Source: Mobula hypostoma (lineage: Eukaryota). Taken from it: a stretch of DNA of 64,000 nucleotides. The notes under the pieces were generated by a model. It had not been told where the DNA came from. It searched no databases and worked only from the letters and a program-made list of their open reading frames with translations. The translations under genes and the position numbers were made by a program. The stretch lies in the NCBI RefSeq assembly GCF_963921235.1, contig NC_086097.1, forward strand, positions 103,604,001 through 103,668,000. Reading direction: 5' to 3'. Shown here piece by piece: positions 1 through 56,491 of the stretch; within the stretch, counting starts at the first letter, position 1, and every line of letters begins with the position of its first letter.

Positions 1-2370
1 TGCAAGCTTGATTTCAATGTTTAAGAGTAGTTTGGATAGGTACGCAGATGGTGGGAGTACCGAAGGCTACAGTCCCTGTGAAGGTGATGGAAGTAGGCAG
101 CTTAAATATCTCAGCACAGACTAGATAGGCCAAAGGGCCTGTTTCTGTGCCATACTTTTCTGAAACTATGTCTATTCCAGATAAGAGCTGGGATCAGAGG
201 AGGGAAGAGGGTTGGTAGTGTCCGAGGAGAGGGGAGGGTTGGGGTTTCAGGGAAGGTGGGGTGGGAGGAAGATGGAGTCTCGAGGACTTGAGAAGCAGGG
301 GATTGCAGAGTGGAGGTGGGGGAAGAAAAGAGCCACATAACCATGTTAAAAGGCTGCGATAGAGTAAACATGGAGAGGATGTTTCCTATGGTGGGGGAGT
401 CTAAGGCCAGAGGATACTGCCTCAGAATAGAGGGATGTCCATTTAGAACAGAGTTAAGGAGGAACTTGTTTAGTCAGAGAATGGTGAATCTGTGAAATCT
501 GTTGCCATAGGTGGCTGTGGAGGCCAAGTCCATACATATTTAAGTGGAGGTTGGTTCTTGATTAGTTAGGCATAGGGAGAAGGCAGAACAGAGGTGAGAA
601 GGGAAATGGATCAGTTATAATCAAATGGATGAGAAAACCCGATGGGCTGAATGGCCTAATTCTGCTCCTATGTCTTATGGTCTTATGGAAAATGAGCTCT
701 GAGCAGCAGGAATGAATTTCAATCAGCTCCACAGCCCAAGTACAAAAGGCGGCAGCAGCAGTGAAAAAGAGCTTTGATCAGTGGTGAATTGGGAGGAGGG
801 AGAAAAGGCATACTGTGGTGATAGTGGATTCGTTAGTTAGGGGAATAGATTGGAGGTTCTGTGAGCGAGAATGAGATTCCTGGATGGTATGTTGTCTCCC
901 GGGAGCCAGGTTCCAGGATATCTCGGATCGAGTCCTCAGCATTCTTAAGTGGAAGGTGAACAGTCAGAAGTCGTGTTCCATGTAGGTGCCAATGACATGG
1001 ATAGGACGAATGATGCGGTTCTGCACAAGGAGTTCAGGGAGTTAGGTGCGAAGTTAATGAGCAGGACCTCCAGGGCTGTGATCTCAGGTTGGCTACTTGT
1101 GCCAAGTGCTAGTGAGGCCAGAACTAAGAAGATTATACAGTTTAATATGTGGCTAAGGAGTTGGTGTAGGAGGGGGGGGCATAAGATTTTTGGATCATTG
1201 GGCTCTCTTCCAGGGAAGGTAGGACAGAAGGGACGGTTTGTATCTGAACTGGAAAGGAAAATTGGATCTACCATGATGAAATGGTGGAGCAGACTCGACA
1301 GGCTGAAAGGCCTAATTCTGCTCCTCTGTCTTAAGGTCTTATTTTCATATCGGCTGGGACAAAATAAGGGGTACGTTGTCAGCAGTGCTAGCTGATTTAC
1401 CTCACTCAAAAGGTGGGCTGTTAGCAACAGAGTCAGGAACTCTGGGTGCATGGCACTAATGTTTAACGAGCACAACTTTATCTAATGGGAACAGTTTTAA
1501 GGTGCTTGGAAGCAGGTACAGAGGACATGTCAGGGGTAAGTTTTTTTTACGCAGAGAGTGGCGAGTGCATAGAATACGCTGCCGGTGACGGTGGTAGAGG
1601 CGGATACGATAGGGTGTTTTAAGAGACTCCTGGATAGGTACACAAGGCTTAGAAAAATAGATGGCTATGGGTACCCGAGGTAATTTCTAAAGTAAGCACA
1701 TGTTCAGCACAGCTTTGTGTATTGTGCGGTAGGTTTTCTATGTAATGACAGCAGACCATGGTTACACACAATGCTCTGAAATCCAGCACCAGTGTCAAGG
1801 CCCTTCCTCTACAATTTTAGCTGGAGCCTAACCAATATTTCATTGAGTGCTGTATATCATTCTGGTTGCCACACTACAGGGAAGACATGAATGCACTAAG
1901 CAAGGCTCAGGAGTGATCCACCAGAATATAGCTGGGATGAAGCATTTCATTTATATGGAGAGACTGGATAGATTGTTTCCTTCCTTGGAGTCAAGGAGCT
2001 GAGGGGAAACCAGGTTCTCCTATATAAAATTATGAGGTGCGAAGATAAGGACTTTTCTGTATTACAGAGGTGCCGGGGGGAGAGGTTCAGGTTTAAAGGT
2101 AGAATATATAGAGGAGATTTGAAAGAAAAATCTTTTCACTCATCAGGTCATTTTAAACTGGAGCACACAGCTTGGGGGGGGTGGGGGGAAGGGAAGTGGA
2201 AGCTGATATTCACAGAACATTAAACAATATCCAGACAAGGACTTGAAACACCAAGACTTAAGAAGATTATACAAGAGTGCTGGTAAATAGGATGAGTACA
2301 GATGGGTATATGATGTCTGCATGGACACAGTGGATTGAAGACCTTGATTTGTGAGGTATAACATGTAGCA
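1..2370 (+). mobile_element. Cluster of CR1 LINE fragments (several 3' ends plus an ORF1 SGNH-esterase remnant at ~800-1250)
   Basis: RT C-terminal peptide (RMFPMVGESKARG...FSQRMVNL), esterase-like VVFHVGANDM, and typical CR1 tails such as aatggcctaattctgctcctatgtcttatggtcttatgg. Confidence 0.8.
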
Positions 2371-3158: not shown

Positions 3159-3781
3159 CCACTGGGAGATCTTGCTCTGTTTGCCAGAGAAAGCAAGATC
3201 TCCCAGTGGCCACACGTTTTAAATCCTCGTCCCATTCCCATTCTGATATGTCTATCCACGGCCTCCTCTACTGTAAAGATGAAGCACACTTAGGTTGGAG
3301 GAATAACACCTTATATTCCGTCTGGGTAGCCTCCAACCTGATGGCATGAACATTGACTTCTCAAACTTCCGCTAATGTCCCGCCTCCCCCTCGTATCCCA
3401 TCTGTTATTTATTTATTGATTTATTTATATACACACATTATTTTTCTCTCTCTCCTTTTTCTCCCTCTGTTCCTCTCACTATACTCCTTGCCCATCCGCT
3501 GGGCTTCCTCCCTCCCCCTTTTCTTTCTCCCTAGGCCTCCTGTCCCATGATCCTCTCATATCCTTTTTGTCAATCACCTGTCCAGCTCTTGGCTCCATCC
3601 CTCCCCCTCCTGTCTTCTCCTATCATTTCGGATCTCCCCCTCCCCCTCCCACTTTCAAACCTCATACTAGCTCTTCTTTCAGTTAGTACCGACGAAGGGT
3701 CTCGGTCCAAAACGTCAACTGTACCTCTTCCTATAGATGCTGCCTGACCTGCTGCATTCACCAGCAACTTTTATGTGTGTT
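3159..3781 (+). mobile_element. Penelope-like element 3' fragment (GIY-YIG C-terminus plus pLTR)
   Basis: Closely matches the reverse complement of 39565-40160. Degenerate hammerhead at 3685-3720; 18-bp fold-back at the 5' junction. Confidence 0.88.
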
Positions 3782-5820: not shown

Positions 5821-8800
5821 GGGTTCCGGTGACGCCATCGTTCAGAATGGCAGCTTAAATCAATAGCTCCTCTGAAAAAACGCATATTTTGCCCCGTTAA
5901 TCCATCATATACAAGATCTTTCGAAAATACCTTTATTGATAAGGGGAGCAAGAATGGGGAAAAAGAATGGAGATATAAAAAGCACCGCTGCGGAGCCTAT
6001 GGAAGAGAGAGGTTCAGCGCGCGGCTCTCCTACACGTGCGCGTGGCGGCGAAGCTGACGCAGGGCCTCGTGCAGGCGAAGCGGCAAATATGATAAGGATT
6101 CTGGAGGAGGTAAGGGAAGTCCAAAAAGATATAAAACAGCAACTCAATGATGCTGATGTCAATCAGAAAATAGCAGTGGCAGAGTCTCGAATTGAGAAGG
6201 TGGAAGATCACGAGCAAAATGTGGAACAGATACGAGTAAGACGATAAAAATATTAAATCAACAGGGAAGTAAATTGCTTGACCAGGAGGAAAGATCATGA
6301 CGGAAAAATATCAGGATTTATAATGTTCCCGAAGGAGCGGAGGGATTGTCGATGATGGACTTTGTAGATAAGCTGCTGTGGTAAGCGCTGGAGATTCCCC
6401 CGACAATGGAGATTGAAATTGAGAGAACGCATCATTCGCTCGTCCCGTGGCCCTCTGGAGACAGAGAAAGTAAACCACGCTCAATAGTACTTAAATTCTT
6501 TCAAGTCAAGAGCAAGACGGAGATTCTACGAAGGACCTGGGGTAAGAAGAGGGTTTTTTTGGAACGGTAAGTTAATATACTTCCATCATGATTAGCCCTC
6601 AGTGCTCCTACAGAAACGGAAGGAATATTCCAAAGCGAAACGAATATTAAAGCAAGTAAAGATTAAATTCCAAACCCTGCACCCTGCTAAACTGAGGGTA
6701 TTTTACCAAGAAGGGATACGACTATACCAGACGGTGGAAGAGGCGACTACAGACATGAACAATTAGCGTATTTCCCGAACTGCTTGGGAAATAGTAAGCG
6801 TCCTGAGAAAGCAGGGGACGGGAGCAGGACGAGAGAAGGATATTAGGAAGAGACTGTCAGTTCTCCGAGGGCAGCCCTCACCTCTTCCAGAAGAGCCATA
6901 AGGTTTGGCTAACTTTTAAAGTGCTGATACACTAAACAGAAGCAAAAATAGACAGTGATATACCTATCTCGAGAAATACGTATTAAAATGTGGATTTTAT
7001 ATTCTTGGCTCTATCCCTCCCCCTCCTGTCTTCTCCTATCATTTTGGATCTCCCCCTCCCCCTCCAACTTTTAAATCCCTTACTCACTCTTCCTTCAGTT
7101 AGTCCTGACGAAGGGTCTCGGCCTGAGACATCGACTGCACCTCTTCCTACAGATGCTGCCTGGCCTGCTGCGTTCACCAGCAACTTTGATGTGTGTTGCG
7201 TGGATTTTATATTACTCAATTTTTAAAATTCATTTGTTCATTCCCTTTTCCCCACCTAAATGAGAATATATACATGGGAGGAATACACAGGGAAATCATT
7301 TCTGTGTAATGGACACAGTTTTTTTACTTTTATAGGTACTGCAACAGGGGCCCTCAACCCACAGGTAGGAGGGGCTATCCCCCACAGCTCGACTTTTTTT
7401 CTAGCCCAACCCAGGGTCACCTAGAGACCCCAGCCTTGGAATCACACCTTTGTTACCTTTTTTTTATTATTTGCGTTTCTTGGCTCTTATTTGTTCAGGG
7501 AGTAGATCGATTAAGTTATACTCTGCAAATTTCAATGATATACTAACAGATAAATACACATGGCTAAGGACAAGGTAAAATTCATTTCTTTTAATGTCAG
7601 TGGACAGTCAAGCGCAGTAAAATTCTATCAAAAATGAAAAAAGAACAGGCCCATGTATATTTACAGGAAACTCACTTAAGTGATAATGAGCATGGAAAAT
7701 TAAAGAGAATGGACTTCACTAATTTGTTTTTCTCCTCATATAAATCAGGACATAGAAGAGGAGTTGCTATTCTCATCTCAAGCAAGCTAAAATTTGAAAA
7801 AGTATTTCAAATGGAAGATAAGGAGGGCAGATATATTCTAGTAAGGGGGAATATAGATGGAAATCCAGTTATTTTATTGAATATATACACCCCCCCCAGG
7901 AAGTGATATTAGTTTCTTACAGAAAATTACTAATATTATGGTAACAGAAACAGAAGGCCTCATGATATGTGGGGGAGACTTAAATTTACAATGACAACCA
8001 AAGTTAGACTCTTCCAATAGAAAAACTTATGAAACAAAGTCCTTACATAAGAAAGTTAACACTCTTTTTGAGGATGTTGGTCTAATTGATACATGGAGGG
8101 ACCTTTTCCCCGACAGAAGGGATTACACTCATTATTCTGCCCCCCATTCCGTATATACAAGAATAGACTACTTTATAACATTTGGAAAAGATAGAGACAA
8201 AAAAAAAATCACCTGTGGAATTGTGACCATGCACCTATGTACTTATCTGTTTATTTTGACCTACAACCAAAGAATACTATTTGGAAACTAAATTCAAATC
8301 GACTCAATGATCCCTATTTTAAAGAATAAATTAAAAAAGAAATTGGTCTTTACTTAGAATTCAATGATAATGGAGAGGTTTCACCTCCCATTCTATGCGA
8401 TACTCTGAAGGCCATCTTAAGAGGGAAAATTATAGCGATATCTTCATGTAAGACGAAAATAAGGAATAGAACATTAGAGGAATTACAAAATAAGCTGAAG
8501 GAACTAGAAAAAAAACAAATTGAGTTTGGCACAGGATACACTAGAGGAAATTTAAAACATTAGGAATGAAATTAATAGTTTGGCTACACAAGAAATCAGA
8601 AAAAATTTAATGTTTCTGAAACAGAGACACATGAAAGTGGATCTAAATCTATGAAAATACTGGAGTGGAAACTGAAAAAAAAGATAGCAGAAAATAGAAT
8701 TCATAGAATAAGGGATTCAAGAACAAAAGTGATAAAAAAAAATAAGCCAAGTGAAATTCAAGAAGTTTTTGAAATCATTTTACAAAACTCTATATTCCAA

Positions 8801-34910: not shown

Positions 34911-35330
34911 CTTCGGATTCTGGACTAGTCTCTATGGCTTGGATAGTAGCTTCTTTCTCTGGTTACCTTTTTGCATTTAATACAGATAAATATTTTGCAA
35001 TTTTCCTTAATCATGTCAACCATTAATATTCCATCTTTGCTCTCTTTTTGTAAGTAGTCTTGTTGTTCCTCCTCAATTTTTAGCTCTACAACAAGCATGC
35101 ACTTTTTTTTCTTTATCCAATCCTCTTTATTTCCTTAGACTTAGAGTAAGGCTTCCTTAGACTTGTCCTTATCTTTCAGATTTATGGAAATACATTGGCC
35201 CTAAACTCTCAGTATTTCATCTTTATTTCCACCCCATTTGTCAGATGCAAATTAACATGCAAGTAGCTGCTCCTAGTCTATTTCTGCCAGATCCCAAAAT
35301 ATATTGAAATCAGCTTCCCCAATTCAGGAT

Positions 35331-35542
35331 GCAAACAACAGGAATTCTGCAGATGCTGGAAATTCAAGGAACACACATCAAAGTTGCTGGTGAACGCAGC
35401 AGGCCAGGCAGCATCTCTAGGAAGAGGTACAGTTGACGTTTCAGGCCGAGACCCAGGGTCTTGGCCTGAAACGTCGACTGTACCTCTTCCTAGAGATGCT
35501 GCCTGGCCTGCTGCGTTCACCAGCAACTTTGATGTGTGTTCC
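35331..35542. mobile_element. Palindromic Penelope-derived mini-insertion
   Basis: 87-bp arms at 35368-35454 and 35456-35542 with a 1-nt spacer. Direct repeat TTCCCCAATTCAGGAT at 35315-35330 and 35539-35554. Confidence 0.92.
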
Positions 35543-39045: not shown

Positions 39046-39564
39046 CTTTTTCAACAGTGGCTTTCTCTTTGCCCACTCTCCCATAAAACTGCGACTGGTG
39101 AAGCACCCGGGCAACAGCTGTTGTATGCACAGTCTCTCCCATCTCAGCCACTGAAGCCTGTAAGTCTTCCAGAGTTGTCATAGTTTTCTTGGTGACCTCC
39201 CTCACTGGTCACTTTCTTGCACGGTCACTCAGTTTTTGAGGACGGCCTGCTCTAGGCAGATTTACAGCTGTGCCATATTCTTTACATTTCTTGATGATTC
39301 ACTTAACTGGACTCCAAAGGACAATCAGTGACTTGGAAATTTTCTTGTATCCATCTCCTGACTTGTGCTTTTCAATAACCTCTTCATGGAGTTGCTTGGA
39401 GTGTTCATTTGTCTTCATGGTGTAGTTTTTGCCAGGATACTGACTCACCAGCAGTTGGACCTTCCAAATACAGGTGTATTTTTACTACAATCAATTGAAA
39501 CATCTTGACTGCACACAAGGGATCTCCATTTAACTGACTTCTAAAACCAACTGACTGCACAAGT

Positions 39565-41837
39565 AACACACATAAAAGTTGCTGGTGAATGCAGCAAGCC
39601 AGGCAGCATCTCTAGGAGGAGGTACAGTCGACGTTTCGGGCTGAGACCCTTTGTCAGGACTAACTGAAAGAAGAGCTAGTAAGAGATTTGAAAGTGGGAG
39701 GGGGAGGGGCAGATCCGAAATGATAGGAGAAGACAGGAGGGGGAGGGATGGAGTCAAGAGCTGGACAGTTGATTGGCAAAAGAGATATGAGAGGATCATG
39801 GGACAGGTGGCCTACGGAGAAAGAAAAGGGGGAGGGGGGAAAAACCAGAGGATGGGCAAGGGGTATAGTGAGGGGGACAGAGGGAGAAAAAGGAGAGAGA
39901 GAAAAAGAATGTGTGCATATAAATAAATAACGGATGGGGTACGAGGGGGAGGTGGGGCATTAGCAGAAGTTTTAGAAGTCAATGTTCATGCCATCAGGTT
40001 GAAGGCTACCCAGACGGAATATAAGGTGTTGTTCCTCCAACCTGAGTGTGGCTTCATCTTTACAGTAGAGGAGGCCGTGGATAGACATATCAGAATGGGA
40101 ATGGGATGTGGAATTAAAATGTGTGGCCACTGGAAGATCCTGCTTTCTCTGGTGGACAGAGCGTAGGTGTTCAGCGAAACGATCTCCCAGTCTGCGTTGG
40201 GTCTCGTCAATATATAGAAGGCCACATCGGGAGCACTGAACGCAGTATATCACCCCTGTCGACTCACAGGTGAAGTGTCACCTCACCTGGAAGGACTGTC
40301 TGAGGCCCTGAATGGTGGTGAGGGAGGAAGTGTAAGGGCATGTGTAGCACTTGTTCAGCTTACAAGGATAAGTGCCAGGAGGGAGATCAGTGGGGAGGGA
40401 TGGGGGGGGGAACGAATGGACAAGGGAGTCGCGTAGGGAGCGATCCCTACGGAAAGCGGGGGGGGGAGGGAAAGATGTGCTTAGTGGTGGAATCCCATTG
40501 GAGGTGGTAGAAGTTACGGGAATTATATGTTGGACCCGGAGGCTGGTGGGTAGGTGAGGACAAGGGGAACCCTATTCCTAGTGGGGTGGTGGGAGGATGG
40601 AGTGAGAGCAGATGTGTGTGAAATGGCGGAGATGTGTTTGAGATCAGAGTTGATGGTGGAGGACGGGAAGTCCCTTTCTTTAAAAAAGGACATCTCCCTC
40701 GTCCTGGAATGAAAAGCCTCATCCTGAGAGTAGAAGCGGCGGAGACGGAGGAATTGTGAGAAGGGGATGGCATTTTTGCAAGAGACAGGGTGAGAAGAGG
40801 AATAGTCCAGGTAGCTGTGAGAGTCAGTAGGCTTATAGTAGACATCAGTAGATAAGCTGTCTCCAGAGACAGAGACAGAAAGATCAAGAAAGGGGAGGGA
40901 GGTGTCAGAAATGGACCAGGTAAACTTGAGGGCAGGGTGAAAGTTGGAGGCAAAGTTAATAAAGTCAACGAGCTCAGCATGCGTGCAGGAAGCAGCGCCA
41001 ATGCAGTCGTTAATGTAGCGAAGGAAAAGTGGGGGACAGGTACCAGAATAGGTTTGGATCATAGATTGTTCCACAAAGCAAACAAAAAGGCAGGCAGAGC
41101 TAGGACTCATACGGATGCCCATGGCTACACCTTTAGTTTGGAGGAAGTGGGAGGAGCCAAAGGAGAAATTATTAAGAGTAAGGACTAATTTCACTAGACG
41201 GAGCAGAGTGGTGGTAGAGGGGAACTGGTTAGGCCTGGAATCCAAAAAGAAGTGGAGAGCTTTGAGACCTTCCTGATGGGGGATGGAAGTATACAGGGAC
41301 TGGACATCCATGGTGAAAATAAAGTGGTGGGGGCCAGGGAATTTAAAATCATTGATAAGTTCCAGAGCGTGAGAAATGTCACAAACATAGGTAGGAAGGG
41401 ATCGAACAAGGGGGGATAAAACAGTGTCGAGGTATGCAGAAATGAGTTTGGTGGGGCAGGAGCAAGCTGAGACAATAGGTCTACCAGGACAGGCAGGTTT
41501 GTGGATCTTGGGTAGGAAGTAGAAACGGGAAGTGCGGGGTGTGGGAACTATAAGGTTGGTAGCAGTGGATGGGAGATCCCCTGAGCGGATAAAGTCGGTG
41601 ATAGTATGGGAGAAAATGGCCTGGTGCTCCTTAATGGGTTCACGATCGAGGGGTAAATAAGAGGAGGTATCCGCAAGCTGTCGCTGTGCCTTGCCAAGGT
41701 AGAGGTCAGTACGCCAGACTACAACAGCACTAACCTTATCGGCGGGTTTTATAGTAAGGTTAGGACTAGTGAGGAGGGAGTGGAGAGCAGAGCGTTCGGA
41801 AGGAGTGAGGTTGGAATGGGAACACTCAACTTGTGTG
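39565..41837 (-). mobile_element. Penelope-like retroelement (5'-truncated RT, GIY-YIG endonuclease, pLTR) nested in Tc1
   Basis: PLE RT motifs IKPADK, FYFLPKIHK...RPIVS, MDVQSLYTSIP, QTKGVAMG, RYIND, VYYKPT. GIY-YIG IYCVQCSRCGLLYIDETQRRLGDRFAEH at 40253-39972. 12-bp TSD GACTGCACAAGT at 39553-39564 and 41838-41849. Confidence 0.95.
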
Positions 41838-42282
41838 GACTGCACAAGTGATGATTTGTTGTGTCCTATTAAAGGAAGTGAATACTTATGCAAACAATTA
41901 TTTTGTGATTTATATTTGTAATTAATTTAGATCACTTTGTCGAGATCTGTTTTCACTTTAACATGAAAGAGTCTTTTTTTGTTGAGCAGAGTCAAAAATG
42001 TCAAATTAAATCCACTGTGATTCAGTATTGTAAAACAATAAAACATGAAAACTTCCAGAGGGGGTGAATACTTTTTATAGACACTGTATATGGTTTCTGT
42101 TTTTCACTATCTTTAACTATTTAAAATACACTTAAATACTTTAATTTATTTACTTATTTCTTTTACTTTCGATATTATCATGTATTGCATTGACTGCTGC
42201 TGCTAAGTTAACAAATTTCAGGACACACGTCAACAATAATAAACCTGATTCTTATTCTGCAGCTTCTGTTTTGGGACTACCA

Positions 42283-43370: not shown

Positions 43371-44659
43371 TAAACCATCAACAAAACAGCTCAAAAATCT
43401 CCTGGATACACTTCAAAGATTCCATACGCTCCAAGTCTTTCACCCTACAGTGATCCCAGCTTATATTATGCATTTTGGAATCTCCTACTACTACCCAATT
43501 AATGCTTACACTTCTTGATTTGCCTATATATGTTTAGGCTGTAGTATAAAGCACAAAAAGTGACACTCTTTCTATTTGAGCTTGATGCGCTCATCCTTGC
43601 AAATGTCACTTTTGTTTTATACACCTTTTCCCCACTCTCCTGTGATGCCTGAAGATAATCATATCTTGAATTGCCAGTCTTGCAACTTGTTTAACAAGTC
43701 TATGAAATAATAACAATATCATATACCAAACTACTAATCAATGCTCTTCGTTCATCCATATTACAAGCCATACTCCTTGCACCAAAATAGATACAATCAG
43801 CCTGGCCTTCCTCTCATGTTTTATTATATCCATACATGCTATGTTTACTCAACCAACTTATTTTCCTTTGAATACGTGACTCTACCTAAACCTCTCCTTC
43901 CCCAACCAAGGACAGGAGCAAAACTGTCTAGTTGCCTTGAGCACTGAGAATACATTTAATTTTCGATTCAGGTGATAAATGATATTGCTGTCATGAATGC
44001 ACTGAAGGTTCAGCAGTCTGACTCCTGGGATGGCAGGACTGACAAATGGAAAGAGATTGGGGCAATTCGGATTACATTTGCAGGAGTTCAGAAGAGTAAG
44101 AAACTTATAAAATTCTGATGAGACTGGTCAGATAATAGAGGAAGTACATTCTTGCTGGTGGAGGAGCCCAGAATCAGGGATTCCAGCCTCAGGACAGGCC
44201 ATATGGAACTGAAATGAAGATAAACTTCTTCTCTCAGAGGGTGGGGAATCTGTAAAATTCTCCACCACAGAAGCAATTGAGGCTAACATTAAATGTATTC
44301 AAGAATAAGTTAGATATATGTTAATGGCCAAAGAGATCAAAGGGCATGGAGGAAAGCAGGTAAAGGCACTGATTTTGGATGATTAGCCATGGTCACGTTG
44401 AAAGGCCAGACAAGCTCAAAAGCCAGAATAGCTTAATCCCAACATTTGCTTTTAAAGTGTGACAATGGAACGGAAATGAGCCTGACATTTCTTCTCCATT
44501 TCAAGATATGTCAAGAACTCAAGAACTGTACTTTGATCCTGCATTACACAACTCAGCTCTCCATTAATCAGCAAATCAACCCATTTAATCAAGAGTAGTT
44601 GCTACTTTAAATAAAAGCACATTAAATGCACTCATTACAAATGATTACTGTTTTCCCAC

Positions 44660-44757
44660 CTCATTCACATGTGGCTTGTTGACGATATTCTTTGCATGTG
44701 CTGCATATCGTAAAGTGCTGATAGTTTCGGTGTAACTGGTGCTTGCAGGTGAGATTG
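44660..44757 (-). CDS. STARD9: STARD9 coding exon (T)[32 protein letters not shown] (end of motor domain)
   Basis: Acceptor gacgacAG, donor GTggga, 98 nt, phase 1 to 0. Kinesin motif SP....ET.STLRYA..AK.I.NKP.VNE. Confidence 0.95.
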
Positions 44758-45399
44758 CTGTCGTCAAAATATGAACATTATGATGAGAATATTAATCATG
44801 AAAAACAAAAGAATTGCAACTTAACTGTAAAAGAAAAATTGGAAAATTGACAACCATAGCAGTAAATAACAGAAATGGGTCACTCCCAGTTTTGGAATTT
44901 AAAAAAAATATCTACAGCTACAAAATAGTACAGTGAATGCATTATAGCAGTAATGTAAAACACTATCACAAAGAAAAGCATGCAACTGTAATAATTACAA
45001 TAATCCAGAAAAATCTATTTCCACCCAATTTAAGTGTGCTACTTCTTACAACCCTTGTGACATCTCATGGTCAAGCCAGGATCTGAAACGGTATTGTTCT
45101 GAATACAAGGGTTGCTTGAATGAGTGAACACATGGACAGGAACCACTGCATGGCCAAGAGAAGTGTTATGAATTGAACCTCTTGTACGAACATCAGAAAG
45201 CACTTGAACTCAATACAAATTTGTGACATGGGATTCCTTCAAGAGTTAACATAGTTTCAACAGGCCAAATGGCCTCAGACCCGTACAGAGATACAGCAAG
45301 GAAACAGATCAATGCCCCCACTGCATCTGCCGCAACCATCAACACCCATTTACATTAATCACACCCAGCTCATTTTGTTGCCTGACTTCCAAAATCATA

Positions 45400-48300
45400 T
45401 GGAAATCGGAAATATGAAAGAGGTAAAACAAATAAAAAAGAGAAATTAATCATTGAGGAGCCAGTTGACTGAAGAGTGGTGAATATTATGCTTATTTAAG
45501 GGGGGGTCCAAGTAAAAGCTGGGAAATATAGAGCAGTAAGTCTAACATCTATAGTTGGAGAGGATTCTGATGGATAAGATACATATGCATCTGGAAAGAT
45601 AGGGGTTGATTAGGATTAGTCAGCATAACTTTATGTGTGGGAGATCACACCTTACAAACCTGATTGAGATTTTTGATGATATGACATAGAAGGTTGATAA
45701 GGGCAGGGTAGTTGGGATGGTCTTTATGGGCTTTAGGATGATCTTTGATAAAGTTCCACATGGTAGACTGCTCTGAGAGTTAGATCACATGGAATCCAGG
45801 GAGAACTGGCTAATTGGATATATAACTGGCTTCACAGCAGGAAGCTGAAGGCGATGTGGAAGGTTATTTCACAGACTGGAGGCCTGCATCGAATATTTTG
45901 ATTAATGGGTCAGTGCTGGATCCATTGTTGTTTGCCATTTGTATCAATAATTGAATAAGAATGTATACAATATGGTTAATAGGTTTGCAGATGACACTAC
46001 AACAGATAGTATAGTGAACAGTAAAGATGGTTATCAGACTTACTTGGGTGCAATCATTTGAGTAATACCACAAGACCATAAGATATAGGAGCAGAATTAG
46101 GCCATTGGCCACCGAATCTGCTCCATCATTTCATCATGGCTGATCCACCTTTCCTCTCAGCCCCAGTTTCCTGCCTCTCTCTCTATCCCCTCGTGCCCTG
46201 ACTCATCAAGAATTTATAAACATCTGCCTTAAATATATATAAAGACTTGGCTTCCACAGCTGCTTGTGGCAACGAATTCCACAGATTCACCACTCTCTGG
46301 CTAAAGAAATTCCTCCTCATCTCCATCCTATAAGTGGGTCAAGGAATAGCAAATGGAGTTTAATTTGGATAAGCACAAGATGTTACATTTTGTAAAGTCA
46401 AATCTGGGTTAGGCATTCACAGTGAACAGCAGGGCCTTGGGGAGCATTGTAGAATAGAGAAAGATCTGGAGTTGAAGTACATGGTTCAAGAAGGGAATTT
46501 GTAGAATGCCTATGAGATGGCTTTTTAAAGCAGCCTGTGGTTGTGCATGGTAGGGGAAATGCAATTCTAGATTGGGCATTGTGTAATGAACCAGATTTGA
46601 TTGGGGTGCTGAAGGTAAAGGGACACTCAGGAGGCAGTTTGACAGGGAGAAGATAAAGTCAGAGGTTTAAGTATAACAGTGGAGTAAAGGAAATTACAGA
46701 GGCTTAAGAGAGGAGCTGACTAAAGTTAATTCAAAGGAGACTCTATCAGGGATGATGGGAGAACAGCAATGGCTGGAGTTTCTGAGAGCATTTCAGAAGG
46801 CATGGGATAGATACCCAAAGATGAAGAATTATTCTAAAGAGACAATATGGCAACCATGGTTGACAAGGGAAGTCAAAGACAGCATAAAAGCAAAAAACAG
46901 GGCATATAATATAGCAAAGATTAGTGGGAAGAAGAATTGGGAAGCTTTTAAAAACCAACTGAAGGCAATGAAAAAGTCAAAAGGAGGAAGGATGAAATAC
47001 GAAGATAAGCTAACCAATAATATAAAAGAGAATACTAAATGACTTTTCAGATATATAAACAGCAAACGAGAGGCAGGTGTGGATATTGGACCACAGGAAA
47101 ATAACACGAGAGGTAACAAAGAAATGGCAGAGAAACTTAAATATTTTGCATCAGTCTTCACTGCGACAGACACTAACAGTATGATTGAAATTCGAGAGTG
47201 CCAGGGGGCAGGGGTGAGTGTAATTGCTGCTACTAAGTGCTTGGAAAAAGTCTGAAGGTAGATAAGCCACCTGGACCAGTCTCCAAAGTTCTGAAAGAGG
47301 TAGATGAAGATATTGCGGAGGCATTAGTAAAGATCTTTCAGGAATTGCTAGATTCTGGAATGATTCCGGAGGTCTGGAAAATTGCAAATGTCACTCCACT
47401 CTTTAAGAAGTGAGGGAGGCAGAAGAAAGGATATTATAGGCCAGTTACCCTGACTTTAATTATTAAGAATGATGTTTTGGGATACTTAAAGGCATATGAT
47501 AAAATCAACCAAGATTTCCCCAGGAAAAATCTTGCTGACATATCTGTTGGAGCTCTTTGAGGAAATAAAAGGCAGGATAGACAAAGGAGAGTTGTTTACT
47601 TGGATTTTCACAAGGTACCGCACGTGAGGCTGCTTAATGAGATAAGAGTCCATGGTATTACAGGAAAGACACAAGAATGGATAGAAAAGTAGTTGAGTGG
47701 CAGGAGGCAAAGAGTGGAAATGATGAGGGTCTATTCTGGTTAGTTGCTGTTGACTAGCATTCTGCAGGGGTTGGCATTGAGAACGCTTCTTTTTAAATTG
47801 TATGTTAATAATTTGGATGTCAGAATTGATGGTTTTGTGGCTAAGTTGCAGATGATACAAAGGTAGGTGGAAGGGCCAGGAATCTGCAGAAAGACTTAGA
47901 TAGATTGAGAGAATAGACAAAGAAATGGCAGATGGAGTATAGTATAGGGAGGTATACGGTCATGCACTTTGTTGGAAGGAATAAAAGTGCAGACTACTTT
48001 CTAAACGGGGAAAAAATTCAGAAATCAGAGGTGAAAGGGACTTGGGAATCCTTGGGCAGGATTCCTTAAAGCTTAACTTGCAGGTTAAGTTAGTGGTAAG
48101 GAAGGCAAATGTAATGTTAGCTTTCATTTCAAGAGGACTAGAATATGAGCAAGAATGTAATTCTGTGGTTGTATAAAGCATTAGTCATACCGCACCGGGC
48201 AGTTTTAAGAAAAGTTGTGCTGGCATTGGAGATGGCCCCGTGGAGGTTCATAAGAATGATTCCAGCAATATAAGGGATAACATATGAAGAGAATTTGATA

Positions 48301-49370
48301 GCTCTGGGCTTGTACTTTCTGCAGTTTAGAAGAATTAGGAGGGGGATCTCATTGAAACCTACCAAATATTGAAAGGCCTAGACAGAATGGTATGGAGAGG
48401 ATGTTTCCGTTGGCGGGGTAGTCCAGAACCAGAAGGCACAGCCTCTGAATAGAGGGATGTCTATTTAAAACAGGGATGAGGAGGAATTTCTTTAACCAGG
48501 GAGTGGTGAATCTGTGTAATTCATTACCACAGGTAGCTGTGGAGGCCAGGATATTGGGTGGATTTAAGGTGGAGGTTGATAGTTTCTTCATTAGTCAGGG
48601 TGTGAAAGTTTACAGGGAGAAGGCAGGAGAATGGGATTGCATGGGAAATTGATCAGCCATGATGAAATGGTGGAGCAGACTCGATGGGCCAAATGGCCTA
48701 ATTCTGCTCCTATATCTTAGGGTTCCTTAAAAGTTGAGCCACAGCACTTGGAGTGGTAAAAGTGGCCTGTGGCACGCTGGCCTTCATCAGTCAGAACACT
48801 TGAGTATAAAAGTTGTGATATCATGGTGTAGACCTATAAAGTGCTGGTGAGGCCACACTTGAACTACTGTCTTCAGTTCTGGTTGCCCTGCTAGAGGAAA
48901 TAAGTTATTAAACTGGATAGAATTCAGAAAAAATTTGCAAAGATGTTGGTAGGACTTGAGGGGCCAAGTTATAGGGATAGGCAAGGATTTTATGCAGTAG
49001 AGTGTAGGAGACTGAGAGATGATCTTATTAAGAAGTATAAAATGAGAGACATAGATCGAGTGAACACGTACAGTATTTACCCAGAGTTGAGAAAATAAAG
49101 AGTTAGAAGACATGGGTTTAAGGTGAGAAGGGAAAGATTTACCCTTTTGAGGGGCATTTTTTTTAAACACACAAAAAGGTATAGATGTGAAATGAGTTGC
49201 CAGAGGACGTGCTCAGTCAGATACACTAACAACTTTTAGAGTACAGTTATACAGGTACATGATTGGTCGAGAAGGTTACTTGCCAAACACTGGCAAATGG
49301 GACTTGGATGGGTTTCTTTGTTGGCATAGACCAGCTGGGCTGGAGAACCTGTTCCTGTGCTGTATAAACC
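45400..49370 (+). mobile_element. Composite of decayed CR1 LINEs (nested; includes a minus-strand 3' end at 46070-46330)
   Basis: QPWLTREVKDSIKAK, many RT-like fragments with stops, and multiple CR1 tails. Confidence 0.8.
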
Positions 49371-52300
49371 TAGGACGTGGGAGGGACAGAGAATGTCTGT
49401 GCGCAATCTTAGAGAATGTGGGCAAGACTTGACGATTAGTCATGCACCTTCAAAGTCATGACATCTGAGCTTTCAGTGCAAAAGCACATATAGCTCCAAA
49501 AAACAATCCTTGTAAGTAGTCAGTCATTTCTGCAGGATGGTGATGTTTTATACCAGAGGGCATAGGTTTAAGGTGAGAGAGAGGAAATTTAGAGGAGTGT
49601 TTTCAATAGACACACAGGGACTGGTGGGTACTTGCATGTACTTTGGTAATTGATTCATTATTAGCACGTGTACCGAGATACAATGAGAAACGTTCTGCAT
49701 GCCATCGAGATAGATCATTCCAAACAAAGTACAGTTACAGAGAAAGTGCAGTGCAAGTATATAAATAAGATGCAAGGCCACAAACAGGTTGATTAAGAGA
49801 TCAAGAATTCATCTTTACTATACAACAGGTCCATTCAATGGTCTTATAACAGCAAGGTTAAAGCTGTCCTTGAGCTTGGTGTGGCACTTTTATAAGTTTT
49901 TATACCTTCTGCCCCAGAAGATGGAATGACTAGGATGGAAGGACACTTTGATTATGTTGACTGCTTTCCTGTGGTAGGATGAAGTGAACACAGAACCAAT
50001 GAAAGGGAGGCTGTTTTTTTGTGAAAGACTGGGGTGTGTCTACAACTCTATAACTTCTAGTGATCTTTGGCAGAGAGGATACTCCACCTAGAAAAATTGG
50101 TGAAGGTTAACAGGGACATGACTTTTGAGGAATAGAGCTTTCTTGGCACATTGCCTATGTGGTTGGACCAAGACAAGCTACTAGTGATATTTATACCTAG
50201 AAACTTGAAGACCACATTGTCAAGTTTGCCAATGACACAACAGTGGTGGGGCTCATCAACAAAGATGAGATGGCCTACACAAAGGAGGTGGAAGAACTTG
50301 AAGCCTGCTGCCAGGCAAATAACTTCTTCCTTAATGTCAACAAGACAAAGGAGATGGTTATTGACTTCAGAACTCAGGTCACTCACACCCACCTTTACAT
50401 CAGCAGCACAGCAATGGAAACTGTGAGCAGTTTCAAACTCCTGTGAGTGTACATCTCACACAACCTACACAATCAGGAAAGCTCACCAATGCCTCTGCTT
50501 TCTAAGGAGGCTGAAGAGAGCTGGACTTTGCACATCAATGTTCATGTCATTCTACACATGCACAATACAGAACATCCTAAAAAGCTACATCGCTGCTTGG
50601 TACGGAAACTACACTGCGGTGGACAGAAAGGCTCTACAACAGGTAGTCAAACCTGCCTGATGCATCATCAGCACCAGCCTACTCGCTATCAAGGACATAT
50701 ATACAGAAAGGTGCTGGTGAATGCATACAGTATATGGAATAAAGTAGATGATCTTGTAGTGCAAGTTAGAGATTGGTAGGTATTTTGTGGCCATCGATGA
50801 GTCGTGGCTGAAAGAAGATCATAGTTGGGAGCTTAACATCCAAGGATACACATTGTATTGATAGGACAGGTGGGTAGGCAGAGGGAGTGACTTGGCTCTG
50901 TCGGTAAAAAATCAAAGCATAGAAAGAGGTGACATAGCATCGGAAGGTAGAATCAAGGTGGGTACAGTTAAGGAATTGCAAGAGTAAAAAGACCCTGATG
51001 GAAGTTATATAAAGACATCTAAGCAGGTCAACAGGGCAATGTTACGATTGTCATGGGGAATTTCAATATGCGCTAGATTGGGAAAATCAGATTGGTGCTG
51101 GATGACGAGAGAATTTGTAGAATGCCTGGAAGATGGCTTCTTAGAACGGGTTGTGGTTGAGCCCACTAGGGAATCTGCGATTCTGGATTGGGTGTTGTGT
51201 AATGAACTGGATTTGATTTGGGAGCTTAAGGAAAAGGAAACCTTAGGGCCCAGAAGTGTGTGCAGTTACTATTCCTAGGGAGAAGGTAATTGGGAAACTG
51301 AAAAGTCTGAAGGTAGATAAGCCACCTGGACCAAATGTACTACATTCCAGGGTTCTGAAAGAGGGAGATGAAGAGACAGTGGCGGCATTAGACCATAAGA
51401 CCACAAGACATAAGAGCAGAATTAGGCCATTCAGCACATTGACTCTGCTCCGCCATTCAATCATGGCTGATCCCAGATCCCACTCAACCCCATAACCTGC
51501 CTTCTCACCATACTGACTAAAGAGAAATCCTAACCTTTGTTCTAAAAGGTCACACCTCAATTTTAAGGTGTGCCCTCTGGTTCTGGATACCTCCGCCGAA
51601 AGGAAACATCCTCTCCACATCCACCTTATCTAGTCCTTTCAAAATTCAGTAGGTTTCAATGAGATCCTCCCACATTCTTCTAAATTCCAGTGAGTACAGG
51701 CCCCAAGATGTCAAATGCTCCTCATACGTTAACCCCTTAATTCCTGGAATCATCCTTGTGAACCTCCTCTGGACTCTCTCCGATAACCACACATCCTTTC
51801 TGAGGCCCAAAGCTGTTGGCAATACTCCAAGTGTGGCCTGACTAGTGTCTTATTAAAGCCATTATCTCCTGCTTTCATATTCGATACCCCTTGAAATAAA
51901 CGCCAGCTTTGTATTTGCCTTCTTTACCATAGACTCAACCTGTAAATTAATCTTCTGGAAGTCGCACAAAGACTCCTAAGTCCCTCTGCACCTCTGAATG
52001 CTTGAATTTTCTCCCCAGTTAGATAATACTATTGTTCCTTTTACCGAAATGCATTATCATACATTTCCCAATACTGTATTCCATCTATCACTTTTTTGCC
52101 CATTCTTCCAATTTGTCTAAGTCCTGCTGAAATCGCATTGCTTCCTCAGCACTACCTACCCCTCCACCTATCTTCATATCATTTGTAAACTCTGCCACAA
52201 AGCCATCAATACCAATATCTAAATCATTGACAAACAATGTGAAGAGTAGGTGTCCCAACACTGACCCCTAAGGATCACCACCAGTCACTGGCAGCCAACC

Positions 52301-52744
52301 AGAAAAGGCACCTTTTATTCCCACTCACTGCTTTCTGCCTGTCAGCCATTCCTCTATCCATGCCAGTATCTTTCCTGTAACTCCATAGGATTTGATCTTG
52401 TTAACCAGCCCTACGTGTGGCACCTTATCAAATGCCTTCTGAAAATCCGAGTAAATGACATTCACTGCCTCTCCTTTGTCCACCCTGCTGGTTACTTCCT
52501 CAAAGAACTCTTAACAGATGTGTCAGGCAAGATTTCCCTTTACAGAAACCATACTGAGTGACTTATTTTATCATTAGTCCCCAAGTACCCAGAAACTTCA
52601 TCCTTAGTAATAGACTCCAACACTTTCCCAACCACTGAGGTTAGGCTAACAACAGGAATTCTGCAGATGCTGGAAATTCAAGCAACACACATCAAAGTTG
52701 CTAGTGAACACAGCAGGCCAGGCAGCATCTCTAGGAAGAGGTAT

Positions 52745-52780
52745 AGTCGACATTTCAGGCCGAGATCCTTCATCAGGACT
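52745..52780 (-). ncRNA. Minimal type I hammerhead ribozyme motif (sense to the STARD9 pre-mRNA)
   Basis: Minus strand reads AGUC-CUGAUGA-AGG-AUCUCGG-CCU-GAAA-U-GUC^GACU: stem I, core and stem II intact. Confidence 0.7.
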
Positions 52781-53061
52781 AACTGAAGGAAGAGTTAGTA
52801 AGAGATTTGAAAGTGGGAGGGGGAGGGGGAGATCCAAAATGATAGGAGAAGACAGGAGGGGGAGGGATGGAGCCAAGAGCTGGACAGGTGATTGGCAAAG
52901 GCACCTCCTGTCCCATGATTCCCATGATCCTCTCATATCCCCTTTGCCAATCACCTGTCCAGCTCTTGGCTCCATCCCTCCCCCTCCTGTCTTCTCCTAT
53001 CATTTTGGATCTCCCCCTCCCCCTCCTACTTTCAAATCTCTTACTAACTCTTCCTTCAGTT

Positions 53062-53097
53062 AGTCCTGACGAAGGGTCTCGGCCTGAAACGTCGACA
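53062..53097 (+). ncRNA. Minimal type I hammerhead ribozyme motif
   Basis: AGUC-CUGACGA-AGG-GUCUCGG-CCU-GAAA-C-GUC^GAC; palindromic ACGU replaces stem III; predicted cleavage after 53093. Confidence 0.78.
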
Positions 53098-53633
53098 GTA
53101 CCTCTTCCTAGAGATGCTGCCTGGCCTGCTGTGTTCACCAGCAACTTTGATGTGTGTTGCTGGCCTATAATTCCTTTGTTTTTTGCCTTCCTCCCTTTTT
53201 AAAGAGTGAAGTGACATCTGCAATTTTTCAGTCCCCCGGGACCATGCCAGAGTCAAGTGATTCTTGAAAAATCACGACCAATGCATCTGTTATCAGCAAC
53301 CTCTCTCAGGACTCCAGGATGTAGTCCATTTGGTCCAGGTGATTTATCCACCTCAAGAACTTTGAGTTTACCTAGCAATTTTTCCTTTGTAATAGCAATG
53401 GCACACACTCTTGCTCTCTGATACTCTGGGACCTCTGGCACACTGCAAGTGTCTTCTACAGTGAAGACTGATGCAAAGTACTCATTAAGTTCATCTGACA
53501 TTTCTTTGACCCCATTACTGCCTCTCCAGCATCATTTTCCAGTGGTCCAATATCAACTCCCTTCTACTCTTTATATAACTGAAAAAACTTTTAGTATCCT
53601 GCTTTATATTATTGGCTAGTTTGCCCTCATATT

Positions 53634-53848
53634 TCAAAGTTGCTGGTTAACGCAGCAGGCCAAGCAGCATCTATAGGAAGAGGCGCAGTCGACGTTTCAG
53701 GCCGAGACCCTTCGTCCTGACGAAGGGTCTCGGCCTGAAACGTCGACTGCGCCTCTTCTTATAGATGCTGCTTGGCCTGCTGCGTTCACCAGCAACTTTG
53801 ATGTATGTTGCTTGAATTTCCAGCATCTGCAGAATTCCTGTTGTTTGC
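53634..53848. mobile_element. Palindromic Penelope-derived mini-insertion with an intact hammerhead core (53714-53747, + strand)
   Basis: 83-bp arms at 53634-53716 and 53719-53801 with a 2-nt spacer. Direct repeat GTTTGCCCTCATATTT at 53619-53634 and 53843-53858. Confidence 0.92.
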
Positions 53849-56299
53849 CCTCATATTTGATCTTTTCCCTTCTTATAGCTTTTTCAGTTGCCTTTTGTTG
53901 GATTTTAAAAGCTTCACAATTATCCAACTTCTCACTTACTTTTGCTACCTTATATGCCCTTTCCTTGGCTTTTATGCAGTCCTTAATTTCCCTTGTCAAC
54001 CATGGTTGCCTACCCTTGCCATTTGAGAACAACTTTTTCTGTGGGACATAGCTATCCTGTGCCTTGTGGACTATTCTCAGGAACTTTAGCCATCTCTGCT
54101 CTGTCATCATCCCCATCAGCATTCTCCTCCAATCCACCTGGGGAAGCACCTCTCTCATCCCTTTATTACACTGTGATATTGATACATGTGAGTTATATTT
54201 CTCCCTCTCGAATTGCTGTATGAATCCAATCATATTATGATTACCTCTGCCATAGTCATGAACTTTCAAGAATCTCTAGATTCTGAAATGTTTCCAGAGA
54301 CTGGAAAAGCGGAAATGTCACTCTACTCTTCAAGAAGAGAGGGAGGAAGGAGAAAGGAAACTATAGGCCTGTTAGCCTGATGTCAGTGGTTAGGAAGATG
54401 TGAGTCAATTGTTAAGGATATGGTTTCCCGGTACTTGGAGGCATATGATAAAATAGGCCAAATTCAGCATGATTTAAGGGAAAGTCTTGCCTGATAAATC
54501 TGTTAGTATTTATTTTGGAGAGGACTAAAATATAAAAGCAAAGATGTAATGTTGAGGCTTTATAAGGCACTGGAGAAGCCTCACTTAGAGTACTGCAAGC
54601 AGTTTCAGGCCCCTTATTTAAGAAAGGATGTGATGACGTTGGAGAGGATTCCAAAGAGGTTCACAGCAATTATTCCGGAATGAAAGGCTCATCAAATGAG
54701 GAGTGATTGATCGCTCTGGGCCTTTACGCGCTGGAATTTAGAAGAATGAGGAGAGAATTTCAATGAAAACTATTGAATGTTGAAAGGCCTAGGTAGAGTG
54801 GATATGGAAAGGATGTTTCCCATGGTTGAGGAGTCTAGGACCAGAGAGCACAGACTTAGAATAGAGGGACATCCACTTAAAACAGGGATGAGGAGGAATT
54901 TTTTTAACCAGAGAGTGGTGAATCTGTGTAATCCATTACCACAGGTAGCTGTGGAGGCCAGGTCATTCATTGGGTGGATTTAAGGTGGAGGTTGATAGCT
55001 TCTTGATTAGTCAGTTTACAGGGAGAAGGTAGGAGCCTGGGTCTGCTCTTATGTCTTATGAAAAAGGGCCAGTATCACGTGAAGAATCCCACTCACCCTG
55101 TCATGGACTGTTTGTCCCACTTCCTTCAGGGAGGAGGCTACGCAGCATTCATGCTAGGAACACCCAACTCAAAAACAGTTATTTTTCCAAAGCAGTAAGG
55201 CTGATTTACACCTCACTTACAAGCCTACCTCACTCCACACCCCCAACCACCACTACTTTATTAATTCCTGTCAATCACCTTATGCACAGACACTCCTGTG
55301 CCAAGATTGCTTTATGGACATACAATCAATCTATATAAATAGCTATCTTATGTATTTACATTTATTGTTCTATTGTTACTATTCTGTTCTTTATCTTTTG
55401 TGGTGCTGCATTGGATCCGGAGTGACAATTATTTCATTCTCCTTTACATGTGTGTACAGGAAATGACAATAAACAATCTTGAATCTTGAGCATCTCCACC
55501 TCAGCACCATTGATATAGACAGGATACCCCACCCTACTTTCTGAAGTCAATGAGCAGTTCTTTTGTTTTGTTGACATTGAGGGAAAGATCGTTGCCATGA
55601 TACCATGTCACTAGTCTCTTCATCTCCTTCCTGTACTCCGACTCATTGTTATTTGAGATACGGCCCACTACAGTGGTATCATCTGCAAACTTGTACTGTA
55701 GTTACAGCAGAAACTGGCCACACCCTCTCAGGTATACAGGGAGTAAAGTAGGGGCTGAGGACTCAGCCTTGTGTGAAAACAGTGTATAGGATAATCATGG
55801 TGATGGTGTTACTAACTGCAGTCTGTGGTCAAGAAATCAAGGATCCAGCTGCGGAGGAAGGTGCTGAGTCCCAGGTCTAGAAAGTCGTAATTATATTATA
55901 CAAGTCAGAGCCAAAGTCAATAATTAGAAGTCTGGCATCGGTGTCTTTGTTAACCAGGTTGTCTAGAGATGAATGTAGCACCATGGTCCTGCTTCAGCAG
56001 TATTTCAGTGGGTTGAGGTTGGTGGATCAGGGGAGGTGGTATAAACAGATACAATAACAATAATTAAACAGGTACATGAAAATTTACATGGAGAGATATG
56101 TGCAGTTTAAACTGTAAACAGTCACCACAGATGTAGTGGATCTGTTCTTGTGCTGTACTGTTCAATGTTTGTTCTTCACAAGTCAATATACGAGCAAAAC
56201 TATTTTACTGAGAAGAATTCATGAAAAGCGTGTACATATTTAGAATATCTAGCCACATAAATAGAAGTAATACCTTTTAGAAAAGAACACAATACTCAC

Positions 56300-56491
56300 T
56301 TGCAATCATGATCGTTTTAGAATTCCCTCCAAGGCTGTCCTTGAGAAGCCAGGTGAGGACAGAATCTCGGTAAGGAACATAACACTGGCGCCTGCTGCTC
56401 CCCGAGGATGCACTGGAATGGCTCCCACTGTCTCCTTCACTCATTACAGTATTTATACTCTGAAAGCTACTGGATATCTGGGAATTTTGTG
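56300..56491 (-). CDS. STARD9: STARD9 coding exon (A)QNSQISS...[27 protein letters not shown]
   Basis: Acceptor tgtgcAG, donor GTgagt, 192 nt, phase 1/1. Kinesin [19 protein letters not shown] motif with the STARD9-type Ser-rich loop-12 insert. Confidence 0.96.

What the first reader, a model, noticed from the sequence alone, without database searches (positions are those of the whole stretch)
53062..53097. Hammerhead ribozyme motif in the terminal repeat of an intronic Penelope family
Seen: young pLTR copies contain AGUC-CUGAYGA-AGG(N7)CCU-GAAA-CGUC^GACU, i.e. stem I (AGUC/GACU), the CUGANGA and GAAA core boxes, stem II and an NUH site, with palindromic ACGU instead of stem III. Cores are intact at 53062(+), 53714(+) and 52780(-) and mutated at 3685, 7101 and 39661(-). 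Established: PLE pLTRs carry minimal type I hammerheads thought to cleave as dimers (Cervera and De la Pena 2014). Inference: this family processes its RNA end by self-cleavage. The ORF track does not reveal this.
Basis: partly seen in the sequence, partly recalled or inferred. Interest (0 to 1): 0.72.

Follow-up and report, generated by a model that had tools for sequence, protein, structure and literature searches.

The report
Minimal hammerhead in Penelope jumping gene
This 36-base motif matches the minimal self-cutting RNA (hammerhead) already known from Penelope-type jumping genes and occurs in over 40,000 exact copies in this genome; it is predicted to cut only weakly and in pairs, this copy is likely inert, and inserted copies stop at the motif's front edge rather than at its predicted cut site.

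Summary
The motif is real at 53062-53097. It is a minimal type I hammerhead (min-HHR) in the pseudo-LTR of an RT + GIY-YIG Penelope-like element with a Neptune-type linker. Such motifs are described (Cervera and De la Pena 2014). Tandem pLTR-ORF-pLTR copies exist elsewhere in the genome, one with an open 1,014-codon frame, and 41,475 exact 35-base copies were counted. The host intron is confirmed: a kinesin gene on the minus strand.

Corrections:
- 53062 ends in GACA, not GACU.
- Helix II is better read GGGU/GCCU with a bulged A.
- 52780 has lost the ACGU palindrome.
- All three 'intact' copies sit in head-to-head hairpins predicted to bury them.

Self-cleavage is not shown. Core positions are no more conserved than flanks among copies. 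Of 57 sampled 5' ends, 29 fall in the 38 bases around the motif's front edge and 1 near the cut site, so cleaved RNA is likely not the template. Genome-wide counts show a broad stop zone, not a sharp splice-site edge. Earlier notes of this scan report the same family and stop zone on other DNA of this genome. Verdict: new member of a known kind.

The parts
53062..53097 (+). min-HHR motif: helix I 5' strand AGUC 53062-65, CUGACGA 53066-72, unpaired A 53073, helix II 53074-77 with 53082-85, GAAA 53086-89, ACGU 53089-92, predicted cut after C53093, helix I 3' strand GACA 53094-97 (3 pairs)
   Evidence: sequence; fold
53040..53063 (+). branch-point-like CTTAC, pyrimidine tract, CAG and TAG directly before and overlapping helix I; looks like a 3' splice site, use not shown
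   Evidence: pyrimidine tract plus AG also in diverged subfamilies; no spliced junction found
52920..53161 (+). right arm of a head-to-head insertion: 5'-truncated pLTR (positions -142 to 98 from the motif start) carrying the motif
52648..52899 (-). left arm of the same insertion (positions -118 to 133, with the extra ~36-base tail); arms 97% complementary over 221 bases; inserted into a LINE repeat with no clear target-site duplication
52745..52780 (-). second motif copy: core boxes intact, ACGU changed to AUGU, one helix II pair broken; same sense as the host pre-mRNA
53634..53848 (.). separate ~215-base fold-back insertion with its axis inside the motif; 16-base direct repeat at 53619-53634 and 53843-53858
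53713..53748 (+). third motif copy, first base replaced by the fold-back junction; 703 genomic matches share this junction pattern
39560..41824 (-). 5'-truncated, broken RT-endonuclease copy of the same family ending in a pLTR with a core-mutated motif (39626-39661)
   Evidence: blastn and tblastn; Pfam RVT_1
3174..3781 (+). 5'-truncated copy (endonuclease end plus pLTR), core-mutated motif at 3685
7003..7207 (+). 5'-truncated pLTR copy, core-mutated motif at 7101
35329..35540 (.). fold-back insertion that lacks the CUGA box
44758..56299 (-). host intron (GT..AG, 11,542 bases) between two kinesin-motor exons (one ending at 56300, one at 44757-44660)

Best explanation
The motif is a minimal type I hammerhead sequence in the terminal repeat of a very abundant Penelope-like retroelement; it likely self-cleaves only weakly, as a protein-assisted dimer in transcripts of tandem elements, while uncut RNA likely serves as the template for new copies, and the copies in this intron are likely inert. 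Shown: the motif, its place about 300 bases after the stop codon of an RT + GIY-YIG frame and about 170 bases before the next start codon, the direct pLTR-ORF-pLTR arrangement, two 3' ends about 36 bases apart (97/98 and 127/134), and the pile-up of 5' ends at the motif's front edge. Inferred from related elements: reverse transcription starts in the tail; two ACGU palindromes pair between molecules to supply helix III; the element's protein chaperones the fold. Inferred here: the local copies come from truncated, folded-back cDNAs. In a head-to-head insertion the sense motif is always transcribed after its own complement and is predicted to be locked in duplex RNA.
For: Element identity: Pfam RVT_1 and GIY-YIG on one frame (both below Pfam's curated cut-off, E 2e-5 and 5e-4). 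ADKG, LRYIDD, a CX4CxxC linker and CxxC-YIG motifs. 3 of 6 long loci are direct pLTR-ORF-pLTR units with a motif in each repeat, 3.4-3.7 kb apart, one with an open frame of 1,014 codons from the ATG. Motif fits the published min-HHR consensus: unpaired base between 9 and 10.1, G10.1 paired to C or U11.1, palindromic 15.2-16.2, short helix I. Among sites with a minor allele of 15% or more, outside four listed CpGs, 1 of 36 motif positions varies (C/U at 11.1, pair kept) against 8 of 56 flank positions (Fisher p=0.068). The motif persists across diverged subfamilies whose upstream flanks differ (72 rows). Uncut template: 29 of 57 5' ends at -20..17, 1 of 57 at 18..37; plain copies only, 12 of 27 and 0 of 27. 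This agrees with PMC11167929: cleavage needs the protein, is dispensable for insertion, and no RNA-seq reads end at the site. Local inertness: predicted hairpins of -460 and -176 kcal/mol pair the motif bases.
Against: No cleavage data. No excess conservation of core over loops or flanks among copies: non-CpG mismatches core 6 of 407, stems 15 of 540, loop/other 4 of 236, flank 32 of 1881. No compensatory pair changes were evident by eye across subfamilies, and the tail downstream is also conserved across them, so conservation of the block does not by itself prove catalysis. Helix II is only 3-4 pairs, shorter than the 7-8 reported for Schistosoma min-HHRs. The active dimer is 19 kcal/mol above the best dimer fold in a nearest-neighbour model. 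Rfam found no hammerhead. Very short cDNAs might integrate poorly, which would hide ends at the cut site, although 3 of 57 ends lie further downstream (38-65).
Confidence: 0.75

Rival explanations
1. Efficient self-cleavage defines the element's RNA ends: tandem transcripts are cut at each motif to unit length, perhaps circularised, and then copied.
For: Intact core in over 40,000 copies; a motif in each of the two direct repeats of full units; the model proposed in PMC4209133.
Against: Insertion 3' ends lie 65-100 bases past the cut site and 5' ends avoid it. In vitro activity of such motifs is low. The motif is dispensable for insertion in the Anolis element.
Confidence: 0.15
2. The motif no longer works mainly as a ribozyme in this family. 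It is kept because it overlaps a transcription start or splice acceptor, or because its repeated GUC/GAC words stall the reverse transcriptase and let the cDNA fold back and prime itself.
For: Stop zone at the front edge. Exact-match counts fall 3.2%, 3.9% and 8.1% per base from position 4 to 1, and at least 9.8% over the next two bases, against about 1.7% background decay per base. 703 matches share one fold-back junction. The monomer's best fold is a rod that pairs the core. Pyrimidine tract plus AG precedes helix I in most native-flank rows of other subfamilies (by eye). The D. virilis Penelope intron ends at helix I.
Against: All core bases match the hammerhead consensus, and the only common non-CpG-type variant keeps its pair. 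There is no sharp edge at the AG|UCC junction (3.9% loss). No spliced junction exists in the genome for two candidate donors (0 matches each). The whole 3' UTR is pyrimidine-rich.
Confidence: 0.2
3. Chance resemblance to a hammerhead inside an amplified repeat.
For: The two boxes alone are not above chance in the window. The fold z-score is -0.44.
Against: The full descriptor hit nothing but this motif in 1.017 Mb, both strands (86 of 86 rows). It lies where PLEs are known to carry hammerheads, with the family's special features.
Confidence: 0.03
4. The intronic copies regulate the host kinesin gene by cutting its pre-mRNA.
For: They lie in a host intron.
Against: 53062 and 53714 are antisense to the host. 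The one sense copy in this intron with both boxes (52780) has a broken palindrome and helix II and is predicted to be buried in a 500-base hairpin. Exact copies occur every 77 kb genome-wide, so an intronic one is expected.
Confidence: 0.02

Closest known systems
Minimal hammerheads (min-HHR) in pLTRs of metazoan PLEs, including fish Xena, Poseidon and Neptune (Cervera and De la Pena 2014, PMC4209133; parts 1-2 of 4 read: Results and Discussion)
   Same: Type I topology, no loop 3, palindromic ACGU, unpaired base before helix II, G10.1 pair, short helix I, one motif per pLTR, most copies single or in opposite-strand pairs 100-700 bases apart.
   Different: Helix II is 3-4 pairs (7-8 in Schistosoma). 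The young subfamily has G10.1-U11.1. The exact-match count here (41,475-45,139) exceeds the about 4,000 and 9,000 given there for coelacanth and Xenopus, by a different counting method. The text read names no cartilaginous fish; one of its three supplement files could not be searched.
Neptune-clade endonuclease-positive PLEs (Craig et al. 2021, PMC8557442; passages read)
   Same: RT then C-terminal GIY-YIG, CX2-5CxxC linker, DKG motif, partial tandems, inverted 5'-truncated copy, 30-40 base tail on one end.
   Different: Clade assigned from motifs only; no tree built. Nematis shares the linker.
Poseidon of Anolis carolinensis, PAc (Frangieh et al. 2024, PMC11167929; parts 1-2 of 4 read)
   Same: Two 3' ends bounding a tail downstream of the hammerhead; no sign that cleaved RNA is the template.
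   Different: There the frame starts inside helix II; here the ATG is about 170 bases after the motif start, beyond the tail. Different clade.
Drosophila virilis Penelope (PMC4209133; Schostak et al. 2008, PMC2377424, passages read)
   Same: A splice-acceptor-like sequence abuts the 5' strand of helix I.
   Different: There the 75-base intron is proven and lies 46 bases after the start site; here splicing is unproven and no donor was found.
Non-LTR retrozymes (bioRxiv 10.64898/2026.07.22.740005; parts 1-2 of 5 and passages read)
   Same: Type I hammerheads related to pLTRs; reported in the one chondrichthyan genome sampled.
   Different: Retrozymes are head-to-tail arrays; the copies here are truncated or head-to-head ends of an autonomous element.

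Membership tests
min-HHR (type I, PLE) | core boxes CUGANGA, GAAA and UH in order | tested here: met
min-HHR (type I, PLE) | helix I of about 4-5 pairs closing the motif | tested here: met
   4-5 pairs in the family majority; only 3 in the 53062 and 53713 copies
min-HHR (type I, PLE) | helix II with G10.1-C11.1 and an unpaired base after A9 | tested here: met
   GGGU/GCCY with bulged A; position 11.1 is C in 13 and U in 39 of 54 copies
min-HHR (type I, PLE) | palindromic 15.2-16.2 in place of helix III | tested here: met
   ACGU at 53089-92; lost in 52780
min-HHR (type I, PLE) | covariation or selection on the structure | tested here: inconclusive
   no excess core conservation among copies; common variants 1 of 36 vs 8 of 56 positions, p=0.068; no compensatory changes seen by eye
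min-HHR (type I, PLE) | self-cleavage as a dimer | not testable with these tools
   only energies computed; no raw RNA reads listed
Rfam hammerhead families | covariance-model match | tested here: not met
   no hammerhead among 30 matches at E<=1; that these models need a helix III is recalled
EN+ Penelope-like element | single frame with RT and C-terminal GIY-YIG | tested here: met
   (weak Pfam scores, motifs present)
EN+ Penelope-like element | partial tandem forming pLTRs; inverted truncated copies; 30-40 base tail | tested here: met
EN+ Penelope-like element | retained spliceosomal intron | tested here: inconclusive
   acceptor-like sequence present; no spliced junction for two donors
Neptune clade | CX2-5CxxC linker between RT and endonuclease | tested here: met
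   CKRNKCYTC at residue 611 of P0001; definition
Neptune clade | RT phylogenetic placement | not tested
   no reference PLE proteins fetched
Non-LTR retrozyme | head-to-tail array of short non-coding units each with a hammerhead | tested here: not met
   window copies are single or head-to-head and continuous with the RT-endonuclease frame

The most novel reading that the evidence does not exclude
In this family the hammerhead marks where copying ends rather than where the RNA is cut. About half of all insertions stop in a 38-base zone at the motif's front edge, either because a short transcript starts there or because the folded motif stalls the reverse transcriptase and its GUC/GAC repeats let the cDNA prime itself. 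Tens of thousands of junctions would then be a fossil record of an undescribed step of Penelope transposition, and the ribozyme fold would be a structural signal, possibly switched by splicing at the overlapping AG.
Probability: 0.3. Interest if true: 0.55.

Novelty: new member of a known kind. Interest (0 to 1): 0.25.

Why it matters
What hammerheads do in endonuclease-bearing Penelope elements is still open (PMC8557442). The motif itself is ordinary. A young family with over 40,000 exact copies gives unusual statistical power, and its insertion ends say that cut RNA is probably not what gets copied. That supports, from genome data in another clade, the in vitro result on the Anolis element, and it gives a precise target (positions -20 to 17) for RACE and RT-stop assays.

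Tried and rejected
Rfam scan: only miRNA- and snoRNA-type matches to long hairpins (0 of 30 hammerhead); those labels were rejected as hairpin artefacts.

RNA evidence: no run on record as RNA was listed. 8 of 22 listed runs, all contigs guessed to be RNA, were laid. They cannot show ends or strand, and only 15 of 138 and 15 of 67 joints were displayed. One joint (L069 5760 to 6368, ending at the CAG acceptor, one contig, 23 bases on the short side) looked like splicing. It was set aside because another subfamily diverges at exactly 5760 (loose ends).

Spliced genomic copies: 0 matches for two candidate donors. Other donors were not tried.

A sharp stop at the AG|UCC junction was rejected by the step counts.

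A tail-only genome search with the window copy returned nothing because common words are skipped; a variant query worked. The 30 loci it gave showed the same end pattern (pooled: 0 of 42 plain ends at 29-37) but were left out of the main count.

Lunse et al. 2017 was not held and is known here only through a review.

The binomial p-values (5e-5, 3e-20) are not relied on: 17 of the 29 ends are arms of inverted pairs and are not independent, and BLAST ends are imprecise by a few bases.

Not attempted: a homologue search, an RT tree, a covariance model, and a sense/antisense bias test within genes.

Full report
Observation. The 36 bases at 53062-53097 read AGTC CTGACGA AGGGTCTCGGCCT GAAA CGTC GACA. 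Both hammerhead core boxes, the ACGU palindrome and the GUC site ending at 53093 are as described. A fuzzy search found nine motif-like places in the window. Three corrections follow. The named copy ends GACA, so helix I has three pairs, whereas 51 of 55 sampled family copies have T there. The 53713 copy begins CGTC because it is the axis of a fold-back. The 52780 copy has AUGU for ACGU and a broken helix II pair. The copies at 3685, 7101 and 39661 are mutated in the core as stated. RNAfold pairs GGGU with GCCU and leaves the A after CUGACGA unpaired, which is the register of the published min-HHR consensus. The two boxes alone are not above chance (5 matches, 9 of 100 shuffles as high). The whole motif has 45,139 exact 34-base and 41,475 exact 35-base matches in the 3.48 Gb assembly, with none for the reversed controls. 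Rfam reported no hammerhead.

What the element is. Following copies upstream gave a frame with Pfam RVT_1 and GIY-YIG hits, both under the curated cut-offs. It has ADKG, LRYIDD, a CX4CxxC linker and a CxxC-YIG endonuclease start; that linker defines Neptune and Nematis (PMC8557442). Three of six long loci (L069, L070, L071) are direct pLTR-ORF-pLTR units with a motif in each repeat, 3,396-3,720 bases apart; two have an inverted upstream repeat and one is rearranged. L070 has an open frame of 1,014 codons from an ATG at position 171 after the motif start. The window holds a broken, 5'-truncated RT-endonuclease copy at 41824-39560 and shorter ends. In 1.064 Mb of unselected DNA (the window, 200 kb around it and 80 spaced 10-kb stretches) there were 58 tail-bearing family hits, about 190,000 per genome if extrapolated.

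Surroundings. Two exons on the minus strand encode kinesin motor sequence (Pfam; best solved relatives are KIF13B) and join in frame across an 11,542-base GT..AG intron, 44758-56299. A STARD9/KIF16A identity is recalled, not tested. The 53062 and 52780 copies are the two arms of one head-to-head insertion (221 bases, 97% complementary) in a LINE repeat, with no clear target duplication. The 53713 copy is a second fold-back with a 16-base flanking direct repeat. Folding either insertion on either strand pairs the motif into a long duplex. In this geometry the sense motif always follows its complement in a transcript. The two plus-strand copies are antisense to the host. These copies are therefore likely inert.

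Is the structure under selection? Among family copies, non-CpG mismatches are 6 of 407 in the core, 15 of 540 in stems, 4 of 236 in loop and other positions and 32 of 1881 in flanks. Variants common enough to mark subfamilies fall on 1 of 36 motif positions (C or U at 11.1, both pairing with G) and 8 of 56 flank positions, p=0.068. The 72 rows with other downstream flanks, mostly older subfamilies, keep the block while upstream flanks diverge, but I saw no compensatory pair changes and the tail is conserved too. A family-blind descriptor hit only this motif, 86 of 86 rows in 1.017 Mb of partly selected DNA. In nearest-neighbour energies the open-core fold loses to a rod in the monomer (-5.9 vs -9.9) and the swapped dimer loses to another dimer fold (-9.3 vs -28.1). 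This ignores tertiary contacts but fits the low activity reported for such motifs.

Does cleavage make the RNA end? Numbering the first A of the motif as 1, the cut lies between 32 and 33. Copy 3' ends cluster at 97/98 and 127/134, like the two tail-bounding RT start sites of the Anolis element. Of 58 hits, one was dropped for lying at a stretch edge. Of the 57 remaining 5' ends, 16 are beyond -300 (6 of them simply run off the reference), 8 lie in -300..-21, 29 in -20..17, 1 in 18..37 and 3 in 38..65. For copies not in inverted pairs, 12 of 27 lie in -20..17 and 0 of 27 in 18..37. Genome-wide, extending the exact pattern leftwards loses 3.2% (4 to 3), 3.9% (3 to 2), 8.1% (2 to 1) and at least 9.8% over the next two bases (48,565; 46,990; 45,139; 41,475; 37,418). 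Background is about 1.7% per base; the last step uses a shorter anchor and includes subfamily differences. This is a broad zone, highest just inside helix I, not a single edge. One fold-back junction accounts for 703 matches, about 19% of the 2-to-1 loss. New copies thus usually contain the cut site intact, which agrees with the finding that unprocessed RNA is the main substrate and that cleavage needs the protein (PMC11167929).

Possible splice site. A branch-like CTTAC, a pyrimidine tract and CAG/TAG precede helix I, and a tract plus AG recurs in other subfamilies. In D. virilis Penelope the intron ends at helix I. Against it: the AG is also helix I, the whole 3' UTR is pyrimidine-rich, no spliced junction was found for two donors, and the step counts show no edge at the AG. 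It remains a lead.

Comparison and verdict. Min-HHRs in fish Neptune, Poseidon and Xena elements are in print. Five literature searches (listings only, beyond the papers named) gave no description of this family or of the stop zone. The library lacks most subscription papers and Lunse et al. 2017, and one supplement of PMC4209133 was not searchable. Earlier notes of this scan report the same family and the same stop zone on other DNA of this genome. They are AI notes and not independent support; the transcript-start wording is shared with them. The finding is a correct recognition of a known feature with an unproven functional inference: new member of a known kind, interest 0.25.

Noticed in passing
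window 56300-56490 and 44660-44757, minus strand: Two consecutive exons of a kinesin-3-type motor gene; identity as STARD9/KIF16A is recalled only.
   Followed up: partly
window 53713-53724; 703 genomic matches: A recurrent fold-back junction at the GTC-CT-GAC mini-hairpin of the motif, suggesting cDNA self-priming at one preferred spot.
   Followed up: partly
L158:5612-5802: Fold-back whose junction joins motif position 1 to about position 37, as expected if the cDNA end paired back through helix I.
   Followed up: no
L072 (3740-3885 as fetched): RT-region sequence joined through a run of seven A to a motif-plus-tail piece beginning exactly at motif position 1.
   Followed up: no
L071, L073, L074, L032: A recurring ~200-base tandem duplication in the proline/serine-rich N-terminal part of the element's frame, present in some copies only.
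   Followed up: no
window 20384-23900 and 28281-29790: LINE with a GDSL-esterase-like ORF1 and APE-RT ORF2, plus a long inverted copy (740 bases, 95%).
   Followed up: no
window 5800-11281: Degraded L1-type element (ORF1, endonuclease, RT, C-terminal part); label from reading the translations.
   Followed up: no
window 37301-39208, minus strand: A 635-codon frame that starts with a Tc3-type transposase HTH and continues into a LINE RT, probably a chance in-frame nesting.
   Followed up: no
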